In this document: in pieces, positions 31,501-58,500 of the stretch | Position numbering within the stretch: position 1 is the stretch's first letter | Layout: each line of letters opens with the position of its first letter | NCBI GenBank assembly: GCA_037379345.1 | Contig: CM074511.1 | Location: 18,414,001 to 18,478,000 of the forward strand | From: Perna viridis | Lineage: Eukaryota | Reading direction: 5' to 3' | Length of the DNA: 64,000 nucleotides | Position numbers: made by a program

Positions 31501-34500
31501 ATTGGAACGTTAGTCAATTATTGATGGTACAATGTGATGTTATAAATATATTTCTTCTTCCAAGTCTATTGTTCTGATTCTAGCCTTTTAGGTGTGAACC
31601 ATCAATAAAAAGTCCTAATGTAAAAATCTCATGAGCTGAGTATCAATCAGTTGACATGTTTTTGAGATCTAGAAAGTCCAAAAGAGACTTTGAGATTCAG
31701 GAGTAAATCATAGTCTGACAATGTTCACAATATTCCCTATAGTCATGAACTGTTTATTGTGTGGTAATCTTAATGGGAGTACAGTTCATGAGAGGGCAGA
31801 TAATGAAAGTTAAAATACATGTACTTAAATGATGCATTCAGATAAGAAGTGATTGATCATCAGAAAATGTTCTGATCAGGCAGATTCCTGTGGAACTAAT
31901 TAATTACTCATTCTGTAGGTACCGGTATGTTTTTATTGTAAACTGTTGATGTAAATAACGTGTATATGCACATTGTACACATAATCGCACATAATACGTC
32001 AGTGAAATTAGGGAAAGTGTCAAAATATTTGGAAATGAGTAATCTTTTTGTAGTAGTAAAATAAGTTGTTTGCCTTGATAAATGTGGGGGTGGTTGAGTT
32101 TAATATGCATAAAATTATTGATAAGAACTGTTGTAGTAGTATTTAGCTAGTGATATTTTTTTCTGGAATTTATAGAATGTGCTCAATGCTTTTGTGATTT
32201 AGATCAGAATTTATTTTTGAATTCAGTGTGGGAGTAGAGGAGATTAAAAAATAGATTTTATTGACATTACTGATTTAACCTGTTATTTGAGAAGTTCAGG
32301 AACTTTCAGATTTGTTTTGATGTATTTGATATCTTTAATCTTATGAAGGTGTAAAGAGATTCTCTGTCTGGTGCCTTCAGATAAGGACTGAAAAATCTCT
32401 TTCCCAGGTACAAATTGCACATAATATCATTTTGTGGTCTTGCCTATTTGAAAACATTTTTCATAGTACTTGGGACATGTGTTTACATTGTAATACAGTC
32501 AAAATTTTGTTAGTGTTTGTGGCCTGTTTATTTTGTTTTAACACATTGTTTTTGTATTTTTTATTGAATATTGAATTTCTTACAACCATAATAAACTGGT
32601 ACTCCTTAAACCTGTACTGAACAAATCTCTTATTAAATTGGCTGATCTTGATGAGAGTTAGAATTATACAGTGTCAGAAAAAAATGCCCACTTGCTCATT
32701 AAATCTGGAAATGACTGGAAACTAAGATTTCCTCTGGACAAGGAAAAGATTTAGTCAAATAGGAGGAAACATGGAGAAAGGGATTGTGAATTTTGGAGCG
32801 AGATAAAATCACCTCAACTTTTCAACAGGGCAACTTACAGCAAAAATTATTTCTAACACTGTTACACTTCTAATACATACATCTTCTCTTTCAAACCTTT
32901 CTATATAAACCTTTAACACTGGATTGTAACAGAGGATATAGAAACCTAAAACTAAGGTCTGATCTTTGATATATGAATTGTTCAGTAGTAGGGCATGAAA
33001 AGGGATATCAAAGCATTTAAAACTTATCAATTATGTAAAAGTTTAGTGTTGCAAAGGTACATTTAAATTGTAACTGAAGAACATCCTATAGTAGAGTAGT
33101 AAGAACAAGAATTTGTGAAGGAGTATCTGGATATTTAAAAGGGAAGGTTCAAACCATTAGACCACAAATATTGTTTATTCTTATAGACTTTTTGGTAAAC
33201 AATAAACAATAAATTGAGTCATAATTTAAATGTTTATGGAAGTACATGTACTTCCCAAGTACACTAGATGAACATAATCAAATATCTACTATACACCATA
33301 GTATCAAGAGTATAAATCACTAAACAAATACAAAATGTATAGATGTTTGCTAAGGTCAGTAGAGTAAGCTCCCCTTCTTGAAGCCCCAGGCTGATGCATG
33401 GTGCATTTGTATTCATAGTAGATTGATAGATTGTAATGAAATTCTGCTGGAATTATCTGAACTAGAAATTCATCTTTCCTGAGGCTTTGTAGATCTATCA
33501 TAGATCATACTGTTTTAAATTGAATTGATGATATTTGTAATAGTTTTGTCAGCACTTGTCCCATTATTATTGTATTTTATGTAATATGTAAATTTATTCA
33601 TATGTTCTGTGTTGTATGACATGTCGTAATATCCTTGGGTGGGGTACTTTACTGTAGTATGTGTAGTATGTAAAATGAATTACATTACTTACATTGTACA
33701 TATTTGAACTGTGAATATAATTTGACTTTCATTCAAATCTTGAAGAATGTTTCAACAGGGAAAAACAAAACAAAACAATATACCAGTTGCTGGTAAATAG
33801 TATTTACTGGTACTGAAGACTTGGTTCTTTTTTGTTTATTTTGTTTATACAAACTCGTAGCTGCATTCTATTATTTCTTTGAGGTTTCCAAGGAGATCTT
33901 TGCTACCAAAAGAAAACACATACTTCTTACAAAATCAAGAAAGTTGATAAACATATGGCCTAACTCTTTACATAATGATATTTAATTACACTGTACATGT
34001 ATGTTGTTATCACAGTAAAAAAAAATGCCACAACGAAGATTATCACCTTTTTCAGATTCTTGTACACTTGAACTATGTATCAAGTTTTTTTACCATGTTT
34101 TTTAAATTGTCTTTTAATTGTATATTTATATTGTTCTTTGTCTAATTTAACACATTTTGAATTATAGCTATATGTTGATGCAGCTGGAAATGTCACTGAT
34201 CCATACTTTTGAAGTTTGTCTTTTGAATGACATTAAGACTTATCATTCATTTTATTTCCATTTCAGATTCTTCAGATATTGTAGATGGTAACTTGAAGCT
34301 GATCCTTGGTCTGATATGGACCCTCATTTTACATTACTCTATCTCCATGCCCATGTGGGAAGGAGAAGAACCAGGACCCAGTGAAGGTGGACCCACACCA
34401 AAACAGAGATTGCTCAACTGGGTACAGAGCAAGTGTCCAGAACTGCCCATTAAGAACTTTAACAATGATTGGAACGATGGTAAAGCCATCGGTGCTTTGG

Positions 34501-55500: not shown

Positions 55501-58500
55501 CCAAGGATGAAGGCAAAGCTAAAGTTGATGTTAAATATGCTGGACAGAATGTTCCTGGCAGGTAGGGAATTAAAAATGTGTAATTTGGTAGGGACATTTT
55601 GAAGTGGGTAAAGTGTCAAATCTCTCATTAAACTGAAAGTGATGAATTTGCTTCTTCTCTCAAATTGGTCATGATGGCCCTAAGAACTTGGACGATGTGT
55701 ACTCATGATTAGATTACATGTACTAAATAGAGTTAAGATAATTTTCTGATCTAGACCTGGCCCATTCAGCTGATTTAATCATTTATACATTGTTTTCTCT
55801 TAATTTAAGCAACTGAAAATTTATGTATGTGATAAATTTTAGTTTATCATAGTTTTATGTGATAGGAAATTATATTGTAAATTTTGAAGCAAAAAATTAT
55901 AAATGCGTGTTTTTTATTTCAGTCCATTCCCAGTGGAAGTTTTCCCAGGTGTAGATGCCAGCAAGGTGCTAGTTTCTGGTCCAGGTGTTGGCAAGAATGT
56001 GTACGCCAGTATGCCTGCTACTTTTACCATTGATACACGTAATGCTGGAAATGCTCCTCTTGATGTTGTTGTACAGGTAAGACAAACTTGCTGAACAAAT
56101 GTTAGTTTAGTTTTCTTGTCTGTCTGGCTGTCTTTCCCTATTGATACCTGTAATGCTGAAAGTCCTCCTGTTGATGTTGTACCGATAAGCCAGGCCTTCT
56201 GTGTAGAAGTTTTCTGTCCGTTTGTACATAGGACTGTTAATCATTGATACCTGTAGTGCTGGAAATGTTTTCTTTATGTTTCATACTGGTAGAAGTATTT
56301 TTTAGTTTTCTGTTTGTCTGTCTGTTTGTCAGCTCATGATTAATAATGATAAATGCTCCTCTTGATGTTTTGTACTGATGCAAGTTTTTCTGTAGTATTC
56401 TTCAGTACAGAAAGATATTTCACCTTCTTCTCATAAGGATAACAGAAATTGTTGCTTTATAGGCTGCATTTTTGATAATATGGACTGAGTGTCAGCTACA
56501 TCCTATATATGTAGAATGTAAGGCCAGAACTATAAATGGCTAAAATATTCTGACATAAGTGACAAAAATTGTCAACATGGAAGTGGATGATTGCGCAAGA
56601 GCGGAGGCACTGTTTTGTCTGAAATAAGACATTGAGCTCCATTCATCATAGACATAGCTTAATATCATATTAAATGTTTCAAGATTTATGAAAGGGAGTT
56701 GGGATACTTTTCATGTTAAACAAGGTGCAATAAGAACTGAATGAATTGTTTTCATTATCTTTGTTAATGGTATATAAACTTCAAAGGAGATTAAATATGA
56801 TCTGGAGCTGATAAATTCATGATCAGTTTCAAACACTTTAGCTGACATTATAATTACTGGTTTCTTCTTAATGAATTGATCTTTGGCCAATAACTTTGAA
56901 TGATATATTAGTGTATTGTATTACTGATTCTTACTTTTCATCTGTCAGTTGTGTATTGTTTATTGCCACTATGATAGGTGTTAACCTGTTCAAGTTTTGT
57001 TTTATCATTCGGCATCAATTTTTTTTTCTTATGCAAACAAATACAGTTTTTTTTTATACATTTATCTATCTTTTCCTGTTAACGAGTCTTGTATCATGGA
57101 AGTGTTGAAAGAAAAAGATTTGAACAGTCTCAATATTTGTTTTGCAATAAGTGTGAAATGTACTTTCCGTGTTTATAACTTTATGATGATGTACAATGTC
57201 TTAGGAATGAAATACTACATTTGTTGTAACTTCTATATTATAAAATCAGTTGCTTTTGATAACTTTCTCACAAATAAATAAACCTGAATGTGAAAGTTGA
57301 AGCAATGAAATGAAAAAGATTGCCGATTACATCCATAATATGGTAAGATTTTAAATGTATTTCTCTTAGAATTTAAAAAAAATTGGAGTTTACATTTCTT
57401 CTGGAATACTATAAACTGATTTATTTTTGCTGATATTTTTTGTGATTTAGGATGTCAATCCATTTCTGTGGCCATTTTGTGACTGTCATTGATGTATTAT
57501 GAAACATACTTTTTCATTTTGATTTATTTTTGCACTTTTTTGTTGCACATGAAATTATTGAGAATTAATTGTTTGTGAAAATTACTTAAATGTATATAGG
57601 CTATTAATAGATGTTCAATTTCCAACTTTCCTTGCTTGTTTTCAGAGACCCGATGGTTCCTTCATCAAACCACTAGTACAGGACAATGGGGATGGAACAT
57701 ACACTGTACAGTATGTACCTGATGATTTGGGTACATACGTACTCCGAGTCAAGTTTGCTGGCAAAGAGGTACCTAACTCACCATTCAAGGTCACTTCTCA
57801 CCCAACTGGTGATGCTAGCAAGTGTGTTATTACAGGTAAGTATCCTAGTAACAACTCATATTCTAAAGTTACCAAATGAATTGTAGTGCTAGTTTTTATA
57901 TGTAAGGTAGCTTTGACTTGCTGCAAAAAAAAATCTGAGCAATGTGCCGTTTTTCACTTTGCACCTAATGGTAAAGTTTTTAAACTTAAATTTTGATAGT
58001 CCCGCTGGAGGAGGTAGACACTAGGGTAAAGGACATAAGTCTTGTAATCAGTGATATGTTTGTATCATATTCAGTTCCACCAAAAGCCTTTCAAGCTGTC
58101 ATTTAGAAATAGAATAGAAGGAAATCAGTTCAAGTTACATGATAGTAATCTGATATTGATGTAAAATGCTGAAAACAAACATTCCAATGATTTGTAAGAG
58201 TTGTGTCCCTTACCCTAGATCTACCTCCTTAAACCAGTTGAAATAATTAAATACAATCAGCACAGTTGTATCTTGAATTTATGAATTTCATTAAACCATT
58301 TGAGGCACTTGCTTTCATCTTTTTATATAATTTGAAATTGATCAATTATGAATATACAAAAAATGTATTAAAAATTACTCAGAAAACAATTACTTCATTT
58401 TCACAGAGGGTCTTGAGAACAAAACAGTACAAGTGAACAAGGAGACTGTTATATGTGTTGATGCCTCACAAGCTGGAGATGGTAAAGTTACCTGCCGTAT

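What the first reader, a model, noticed from the sequence alone, without database searches (positions are those of the whole stretch)
34473..56380. Repeated tandem amplification of exon-end plus 5' splice-site junctions (four events in one gene)
Seen: four unrelated repeats each start inside an exon, cross its donor and run into the intron: 34473-34662 (65 bp x3), 35783-36167 (about 56 bp x7), 52896-52984 (53 bp x2) and 56029-56380 (about 105 bp x3-4, eroded). All are on the donor side and show different degrees of decay, and distal copies often lose the GT. That is 4 of 24 donors. Inference: either a mutational process focused on donor junctions (for example transcription- or splicing-coupled repair slippage) or selective tolerance because the first donor keeps the frame. 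It could be a source of new splice sites or introns.
Basis: partly seen in the sequence, partly recalled or inferred. Interest (0 to 1): 0.7.

Follow-up and report, generated by a model that had tools for sequence, protein, structure and literature searches.

The report
Repeats spanning four filamin splice donors
In a mussel-like filamin gene, four separate short tandem repeats each copy the end of an exon plus its splice donor into the following intron, a kind of repeat already known from several human genes, and whether four in one gene means more than tolerated accidents needs a genome-wide count.

Summary
The + strand carries a filamin gene of a bivalve (closest proteins: Mytilus, 68-93% per exon) with 24 exons in the window. 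Four unrelated tandem arrays (34473-34664, 35783-36166, 52889-52993, 56029-56380) each begin inside an exon, cross its donor and continue into the intron. An unbiased self-alignment scan finds 7 local repeats in the gene: 4 cross donors, 0 cross acceptors, 3 are purely intronic.

This is a known kind. Minisatellites whose first monomer spans an exon-intron boundary are described in human F7, IFI 6-16, CBS, LMNB2 and PDGFA, where mostly the most upstream donor is used. Here the first donor gives the protein conserved in other bivalves. Of 9 pseudo-donors that keep GT, 7 would shift the frame or hit a stop.

Enrichment inside this one gene is suggestive: P = 2e-4 to 6e-3, depending on the null. 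It is post hoc, though, and donor versus acceptor (4/24 vs 0/23) is not significant (P = 0.11). A donor-focused mutational process is neither shown nor excluded. "Distal copies often lose GT" is overstated (3 of 12). No transcript, read or genome-wide data were available.

The parts
18479..58654 (+). Filamin gene, 24 exons in the window, N-terminal Met to exon 24; the gene probably continues beyond the window.
   Evidence: tblastn of bivalve filamins is collinear over 24 blocks. GT/AG and phase are consistent. Pfam, exon by exon: CH domain in E1 and E2, Filamin repeat in 12 of 13 further exons tested.
34267..34518 (+). Exon 2 (end of the CH1-CH2 actin-binding domain). Authentic donor CAG|GTAAGA after 34518, phase 1.
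   Evidence: The junction peptide AVGPG|LCPDW is continuous in 21 of 23 bivalve filamins.
34473..34664 (+). Array A1: 3 copies of 65 bp, each made of the last 46 nt of exon 2 plus the first 19 nt of intron 2. Copy 2 keeps CAG|GTAAGA; copy 3 has CAG|ATAGAT.
   Evidence: TRF period 65, 2.9 copies, 90% matches. Copy alignment. Exon versus downstream intron, Smith-Waterman score 85 against a null maximum of 23.
35704..35801 (+). Exon 3. Authentic donor CAG|GTACAA after 35801, phase 0; a weak donor (6/9 matches to CAG|GTAAGT).
   Evidence: The junction KWLDxPQ|LIKP is continuous in 18 of 23 bivalve filamins.
35783..36166 (+). Array A2: 7 copies (61, 56, 52, 51, 56, 52, 56 bp), made of the last 19 nt of exon 3 plus 33-42 nt of intron 3. 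Long and short unit subtypes alternate (higher-order periods 108 and 159). All 6 distal copies keep GT: 5 are CAG|GTACAA and 1 is CAA|GTACAA.
   Evidence: TRF periods 56, 108 and 159; 7.0 copies at period 56. Copy alignment. Pseudo-donors. Smith-Waterman score 38 against a null maximum of 24.
52749..52922 (+). Exon 18 (part of a filamin repeat). Authentic donor AAG|GTAAGT after 52922, phase 1.
   Evidence: The junction YTPVEEG| is continuous in 18 of 23 bivalve filamins.
52889..52993 (+). Array A3: one tandem duplication, 2 copies of 53 bp (27-34 exon nt plus 19-26 intron nt, depending on how the unit is phased). Copy 2 keeps AAG|GTAAAT.
   Evidence: Offset-53 run at 52887-52993. Copy alignment 35/39. 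Smith-Waterman score 45 against a null maximum of 22. Not called by TRF.
55923..56076 (+). Exon 22 (part of a filamin repeat). Authentic donor CAG|GTAAGA after 56076, phase 0.
56029..56380 (+). Array A4: about 3.5 eroded copies (111, 103, about 90-100 bp, then a partial copy), made of the last 48 nt of exon 22 plus 63 nt of intron 22. GT is kept only in copy 3 (CTG|GTAGAA).
   Evidence: Sequence. Copy alignment: 35/41, 40/51 and 31/35 for the exon-derived parts. Smith-Waterman score 53 against a null maximum of 24. Not called by TRF.
34801..35005 (+). Comparator: purely intronic array, 49 bp x 4, in intron 2.
48650..48751 (+). Comparator: purely intronic array, 49 bp x 2.1, in intron 15; it starts 99 nt after the exon 15 donor.
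41464..41831 (+). Comparator: purely intronic spaced direct repeats (three copies at offsets of 148 and 169 bp, 78-80% identical) in intron 6.

Best explanation
These are four independent tandem duplications of different ages; two or three have grown into small minisatellites. In each, the duplicated segment happened to include the last 19-48 nt of a filamin exon, the 5' splice site and the first 19-63 nt of the intron.

Because the copies lie head to tail, the first copy stays joined to the exon. All further copies lie inside the intron as pseudo exon-ends with pseudo-donors. The spliceosome uses the first (authentic) donor, so the mRNA is unchanged and the arrays drift as nearly neutral intron sequence.

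The same kind of duplication inside an exon would alter the mRNA and be removed; across an acceptor it may do so too. That would leave donor-spanning and purely intronic arrays as the survivors.

Shown: the arrays, their position over the donors, and that the first donor gives the conserved protein. Inferred: which donor is used, neutrality, and the asymmetric filter. The cluster of four in one gene is taken as chance or a modest local bias until a genome-wide count says otherwise.
For: - Arrays and copy anatomy.
- Exon model and donors.
- Only the exon's 3' end has extra copies, and only downstream: 4 of 48 exon-versus-flank comparisons were significant, all on the downstream side.
- Copy identities range from about 92-94% (A1) to about 80% with indels (A4), and the units are unrelated to each other, so the events are independent.
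- Using the first donor gives AVGPG|LCPDW, KWLDxPQ|LIKP and YTPVEEG|, which are continuous in 21, 18 and 18 of 23 bivalve filamins. No protein with a motif hit carries an insert; the remaining rows had no regex hit and were not examined further.
- tblastn blocks of Mytilus edulis X27 abut at all four junctions.
- 7 of 9 GT-retaining pseudo-donors would shift the frame and/or meet a stop.
- Precedent: minisatellites whose first monomer spans the exon-intron boundary occur in human F7, IFI 6-16, CBS, LMNB2 and PDGFA. In F7 only the most upstream donor is used, although the pseudo-sites are functional (PMC1557585, introduction and discussion read).
Against: - Uniform duplication plus tolerance predicts only 0.35-0.6 donor-spanning events among 7, not 4 (P = 1.8e-4 to 1.2e-3). 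Tolerance alone therefore does not account for the count unless this gene is a selected outlier.
- Tolerance is not automatic. [quoted passage not shown]
- A2 places six pseudo-donors as strong as the weak authentic one (6/9) just downstream. Their silence is assumed, not shown.
- There are no transcript data for this organism.
Confidence: 0.7

Rival explanations
1. Donor junctions are a mutational hot spot for tandem duplication in this genome. The cause could be replication or repair slippage where RNA polymerase or the splicing machinery dwells on the 5' splice site. Under this reading the four arrays are products of that bias, not only survivors of selection.
For: - 4 of 7 local repeats in the gene span cross a donor, where 0.35-0.6 are expected (P = 1.8e-4 to 1.2e-3). 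Placing whole arrays at random gives P = 0.006-0.03.
- 0 of 23 acceptors are crossed.
- A further 6-bp x 4 repeat also crosses the exon 7 donor.
Against: - This is a post hoc test on one gene chosen for the pattern.
- Donor versus acceptor is not significant (Fisher P = 0.11).
- The exon 7 microsatellite is within expectation: about 0.45 donor crossings are expected from 35 small loci covering 754 bp. That figure is my arithmetic.
- Predicted DNA folding energy, its z-score and GC within +-60 nt of the donor do not set the four donors apart from the other 20 (Mann-Whitney P = 0.76, 0.97 and 1.0).
- I found no report of such a bias in five literature searches.
Confidence: 0.15
2. The arrays are kept because they do something. 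Extra U1-binding sites just inside the intron could help define the exon or suppress premature cleavage. In A2, alternative in-frame donors could add 39 or 92 residues after the actin-binding domain. AG|GT copies could also act as stepwise (recursive-like) splice points.
For: - 9 of 12 distal copies keep GT; all six in A2 do.
- The exon 3 reading frame stays open through the array to 36116, and the pseudo-donors after 35918 and 36077 are in frame.
- Mytilus filamins have many annotated isoforms.
Against: - GT loss in the older copies looks like plain decay: A4 has lost it in 2 of 3 distal copies and A1 in 1 of 2.
- An open frame across six units that each hold one stop in one frame has a chance of about (2/3)^6 = 9% (my arithmetic from the unit sequence), so it is not remarkable.
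- None of the 18 bivalve filamins in which the E3/E4 motif was found has an insert at that junction.
- Three of the four authentic donors are already strong (8/9).
- The introns are only 1.2-1.6 kb, so recursive splicing is not needed.
Confidence: 0.08
3. Assembly artefact: the arrays were created or inflated by mis-assembly of reads.
For: None from the sequence. It simply cannot be excluded without reads.
Against: Copies differ by substitutions and indels (80-96% identity). A2 has two unit subtypes in a higher-order pattern. A4 is heavily eroded. Artefactual duplications would be near-identical.
Confidence: 0.03

Closest known systems
Human F7 intron 7 minisatellite (37-bp VNTR whose first monomer spans the exon 7-IVS7 boundary)
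   Same: A head-to-tail array; the first monomer is the exon end plus the donor plus the intron start; the donor is reiterated in the intron. In F7 only the most upstream donor is used, although the pseudo-sites are functional (PMC1557585, abstract, introduction and discussion read).
   Different: F7 has 4 exon nt plus 33 intron nt and identical monomers, and is known to be polymorphic (5-9 copies). Here the exon parts are longer (19-48 nt), the copies have diverged, and polymorphism and donor use are unknown. The organism is a bivalve.
Other human minisatellites with the first monomer over an exon-intron boundary: IFI 6-16 intron 2, CBS intron 13, LMNB2, PDGF intron 4
   Same: The same architecture. 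In LMNB2 and PDGF only the authentic donor is used; in 6-16 and CBS the two nearest pseudo-sites are also used (PMC1557585, introduction read).
   Different: Each of those genes is described with one such array. Here four independent arrays sit in one gene (4 of 24 donors).
Tandem-duplication model of intron gain (duplicated AGGT serving as donor and acceptor)
   Same: A tandem duplication that contains AG|GT, with the duplicated copy removed by splicing so that the coding sequence is unchanged (PMC3443670, passages read; PMC2891723, abstract read).
   Different: In that model an exonic segment is duplicated and a new intron is born. Here the duplication straddles a donor taken to pre-exist and only lengthens that intron. 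Whether these intron positions are ancient was not tested.
[quoted passage not shown]
   Same: A tandem duplication of an exon end plus the donor (PMC9052919, passages read).
   Different: It is pathogenic: the main product retains the intron. It shows that such duplications are not always tolerated.

Membership tests
Minisatellite or tandem duplication whose first monomer spans an exon-intron (donor) boundary | Head-to-tail tandem copies of a unit of about 10-100+ bp | tested here: met
   A1 65 bp x 3; A2 51-61 bp x 7; A3 53 bp x 2; A4 about 90-111 bp x 3.5. 0 loci in Markov-1 controls.
Minisatellite or tandem duplication whose first monomer spans an exon-intron (donor) boundary | The first monomer holds the last bases of the exon, the donor and the first bases of the intron | tested here: met
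   Donors after 34518, 35801, 52922 and 56076 lie inside the first copies. The exon ends are fixed by collinear tblastn blocks and continuous junction peptides in other bivalves. There is no transcript evidence from this organism.
Minisatellite or tandem duplication whose first monomer spans an exon-intron (donor) boundary | The donor motif is reiterated in downstream monomers (pseudo-sites) | tested here: met
   9 of 12 distal copies keep GT; 6 keep the full 9-mer of the authentic site (A1 copy 2, A2 copies 2-6).
Minisatellite or tandem duplication whose first monomer spans an exon-intron (donor) boundary | Splicing uses the most upstream donor | not testable with these tools
   No RNA data. 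Indirect only: the first donor gives the conserved protein, and 7 of 9 pseudo-donors would break the frame.
Minisatellite or tandem duplication whose first monomer spans an exon-intron (donor) boundary | Copy-number polymorphism (VNTR) | not testable with these tools
   Only one sequence of the locus is available; there is no read or population data.
Intron gain by tandem genomic duplication | A new intron whose two splice sites both derive from a duplicated AGGT inside former coding sequence | tested here: not met
   In all four cases the acceptor is the ordinary one 1.2-1.6 kb downstream and is not part of the repeat. The duplication only adds copies to the 5' end of that intron. The age of the introns themselves was not tested.
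Filamin (the host gene) | N-terminal tandem CH domains followed by many Filamin/ABP280 repeats | tested here: met
   Pfam, exon by exon: CH in E1 (3e-15) and E2 (2e-10); Filamin repeat in 12 of 13 further exons tested, with the 32-aa E3 giving no hit. Best protein matches are named filamins of molluscs.

The most novel reading that the evidence does not exclude
In this bivalve genome, 5' splice-site junctions are intrinsic hot spots for tandem duplication (ten-fold or more above the intronic background). The cause would be a transcription- or splicing-coupled replication or repair error. Arrays of decoy donors would then be generated genome-wide, supplying raw material for alternative 5' splice sites and for intron growth.
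Probability: 0.13. Interest if true: 0.75.

Novelty: new member of a known kind. Interest (0 to 1): 0.35.

Why it matters
As it stands, this adds four invertebrate examples to a small, known class of repeats that reiterate a splice donor inside the intron. They are natural test cases for how a spliceosome chooses among identical donors.

It would matter more if the excess at donors proved general. That would point to a mutational process tied to splice sites and to a steady source of new 5' splice sites. The window cannot show this. A simple genome-wide count in the source assembly can.

Tried and rejected
- **DNA secondary structure or GC as a cause.** I compared folding energy, its z-score and GC of +-60 nt around each of the 24 donors, skipping the distal copies for the four arrays. 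There was no difference (Mann-Whitney P = 0.76, 0.97, 1.0).
- **Units as parts of a dispersed or mobile element.** No other copy of any unit on either strand of the window.
- **The same pattern in another gene of the window.** Pfam on 29 other ORFs of 70 aa or more gave nothing above threshold, so no second gene could be modelled.
- **Acceptor-side or older donor-side copies.** Smith-Waterman of each exon against up to 1200 nt of each flank gave 48 comparisons. Only the four known cases stood out. There was one borderline acceptor-side match at exon 8 (15/16 nt, score 27 against a null maximum of 20), which I did not count.
- **Isoforms with inserts at the junctions.** None where the junction motif was found (21, 18 and 18 of 23 bivalve filamins). 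An apparent tblastn extension into A2 for two oyster proteins was a spurious alignment.
- **A protein of the same species.** None was seen in three protein searches.
- **Flanking microhomology.** It was not resolvable because the copies have diverged (inspection).
- **Gao and Lynch 2009 (PMC2791625).** The paper is not held.
- **A genome-wide study of repeats over donors.** Not found. These searches cover only the held library.
- **Not available or not useful.** Paper supplements were not consulted.
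Full report
**What the window is.** The window has no N and about 32% G+C. It is not human. Its + strand carries a filamin gene. Translated single exons match named mollusc filamins. tblastn of bivalve filamins gives 24 collinear blocks from 18479 to 58654.

Pfam, run exon by exon, finds CH domains in exons 1 and 2. It finds Filamin repeats in 12 of 13 further exons tested. The closest proteins are Mytilus filamins, 68-93% identical per exon for M. 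edulis X27. No protein of the same species turned up. I therefore call the source a mytilid-like bivalve and no more.

Exon ends were set from the tblastn blocks, GT/AG and reading phase. The donor and acceptor scores used there were an ad hoc matrix written from recall and served only to rank candidates.

**The observation.** All four arrays are real.
- A1 (34473-34664) is 3 copies of 65 bp: 46 nt of exon 2 plus 19 nt of intron 2.
- A2 (35783-36166) is 7 copies of 51-61 bp: 19 nt of exon 3 plus 33-42 nt of intron 3. It has long and short unit subtypes and higher-order periods of 108 and 159.
- A3 (52889-52993) is a single 53-bp duplication across the exon 18 donor.
- A4 (56029-56380) is about 3.5 eroded copies of about 90-111 bp across the exon 22 donor.

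TRF called A1 and A2 but not A3 or A4. An ungapped offset scan of my own found all four. The units are unrelated to one another and occur nowhere else in the window. My model has 24 donors, so '4 of 24' is right.

**Is it more than chance?** The scan was blind to annotation. At five threshold settings it gave 10-11 local direct-repeat loci in the window and 0 in five Markov-1 controls per setting.
- Seven loci lie in the gene span. Four cross a donor, none crosses an acceptor, and three are purely intronic (34801-35005, 41464-41831, 48650-48751).
- A directed test aligned every exon to up to 1200 nt of each flanking intron, giving 48 comparisons. Extra copies appeared only for the 3' ends of exons 2, 3, 18 and 22, and only downstream.
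- One borderline acceptor-side match at exon 8 (15/16 nt) was not counted.

Three nulls were applied:
- Placing the seven whole arrays at random gives P(4 or more over donors) = 0.006, or 0.03 if the 15.4-kb first intron is left out.
- A second null duplicates a unit at a uniform position, with exon-internal and acceptor-spanning events removed. It gives 0.35-0.6 expected and P = 1.8e-4 to 1.2e-3.
- The donor-versus-acceptor contrast alone is not significant (4/24 vs 0/23, Fisher P = 0.11).

All these values are post hoc, because the gene was picked for the pattern.

**What the copies would do to the mRNA.** Using the first donor gives the junction peptides AVGPG|LCPDW, KWLDxPQ|LIKP and YTPVEEG|. 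These are found uninterrupted in 21, 18 and 18 of 23 bivalve filamins. The other rows gave no regex hit and were not looked at further. The tblastn blocks of M. edulis X27 abut at all four junctions.

Of 12 distal copies, 9 keep GT and 3 have lost it, so 'often lose the GT' is overstated. Six pseudo-donors are identical in all nine positions to the authentic site.

Of the 9 GT-retaining pseudo-donors, 7 would shift the frame and/or meet a stop. Two in A2, after 35918 (+117 nt) and 36077 (+276 nt), would be in frame with no stop. The open frame through A2 is not remarkable for a unit with one stop in one frame (about 9% by my arithmetic). None of the 18 bivalve proteins with the E3/E4 motif has an insert there.

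**What is known.** Borensztajn et al. 2006 (PMC1557585; abstract, introduction and discussion read) describe exactly this architecture. These are minisatellites whose first monomer spans an exon-intron boundary, so that the donor is reiterated in the intron. The examples are human F7 intron 7, IFI 6-16, CBS intron 13, LMNB2 and PDGF intron 4.
- In F7 only the most upstream donor is used, although the pseudo-sites are functional. The authors argue for 5'-to-3' scanning.
- In 6-16 and CBS the two nearest pseudo-sites are also used.
- The opposite outcome exists as well. [quoted passage not shown]
- The tandem-duplication model of intron gain uses the same AG|GT logic but creates a new intron (PMC3443670, passages read; PMC2891723, abstract read). 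Here a donor taken to pre-exist is straddled and the acceptor is the ordinary one, so that family's defining feature is not met.

I found no genome-wide test of repeats over donors. Those searches cover only the held library, and Gao and Lynch 2009 was not held.

**Best explanation.** These are four independent, differently aged tandem duplications or minisatellites that straddle donors. They are tolerated because the first copy remains the exon end and its donor is the one used. Exon-internal duplications would change the mRNA and be lost, and acceptor-spanning ones may be too.
- Shown: structure, position and conservation of the first-donor product.
- Inferred: donor choice, neutrality and the asymmetric filter.
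- Confidence: 0.7.

What this does not explain is the count, 4 where well under 1 is expected.

**Rivals.**
- A donor-focused mutational process (0.15) would explain the count. It rests on one selected gene. It also gets no support from predicted DNA structure or GC around the donors, where the four do not differ from the other 20 (P = 0.76-1.0).
- A selected function, such as decoy U1 sites, in-frame alternative donors or stepwise AG|GT splicing (0.08), has no direct support. The older copies decay.
- An assembly artefact (0.03) is unlikely because the copies have diverged with substitutions and indels.

**Verdict.** This is a confirmed observation of a known kind of feature in a new organism and gene, unusual only in having four in one gene. 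Interest is moderate to low unless a genome-wide count shows a donor excess.

Several things stayed unchecked. There were no transcripts, no raw reads, no population data and no orthologous DNA.

Noticed in passing
46690-50903 (exons 13-17): Five tandem paralogous filamin-repeat units. Exons 13-15 are 285 nt each, exon 16 is 294 nt, and exon 17 (582 nt) begins with a fifth unit. All are phase 1-1 and 70-75% identical at DNA level. M. edulis isoform X27 (2790 aa) contains matching repeats, while 2416-aa Mytilus forms lack them, so these are probably cassette exons.
   Followed up: partly
46290, 46974, 47979, 48551, 49673 (donors of exons 12-16): The five donors in and before the paralogous-exon block all read xxC|GTAAGT, with C instead of G at position -1, unlike most other donors of the gene.
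   Followed up: no
42637-42660: A 6-bp repeat (TTGGTG x 4) crosses the exon 7 donor (CTG|GTGAGT after 42657) and encodes a Gly/Val run. It is a fifth repeat over a donor at microsatellite scale, but within chance expectation (about 0.45 expected).
   Followed up: partly
42829-42844 vs 42906-42921: A borderline 15/16-nt match between intron 7 and the start of exon 8, 77 nt apart. It could be a very old acceptor-side duplication or chance (score 27 against a null maximum of 20).
   Followed up: partly
1-523: A 44-bp x 11.9 tandem array (95% matches), cut by the window start. No gene was recognised next to it.
   Followed up: partly
18819-34266 (intron 1): The 15.4-kb first intron holds none of the local direct-repeat loci, while the remaining 24.7 kb of the gene holds seven.
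   Followed up: no
8320-8625 and 10319-10493: Two further sets of local direct repeats upstream of the gene: 66-bp units at offsets of 98 and about 170, and an 83-bp unit x 2. Both are about 80% identical.
   Followed up: no
4530-4720: A T-rich low-complexity stretch with overlapping short-period repeats.
   Followed up: no
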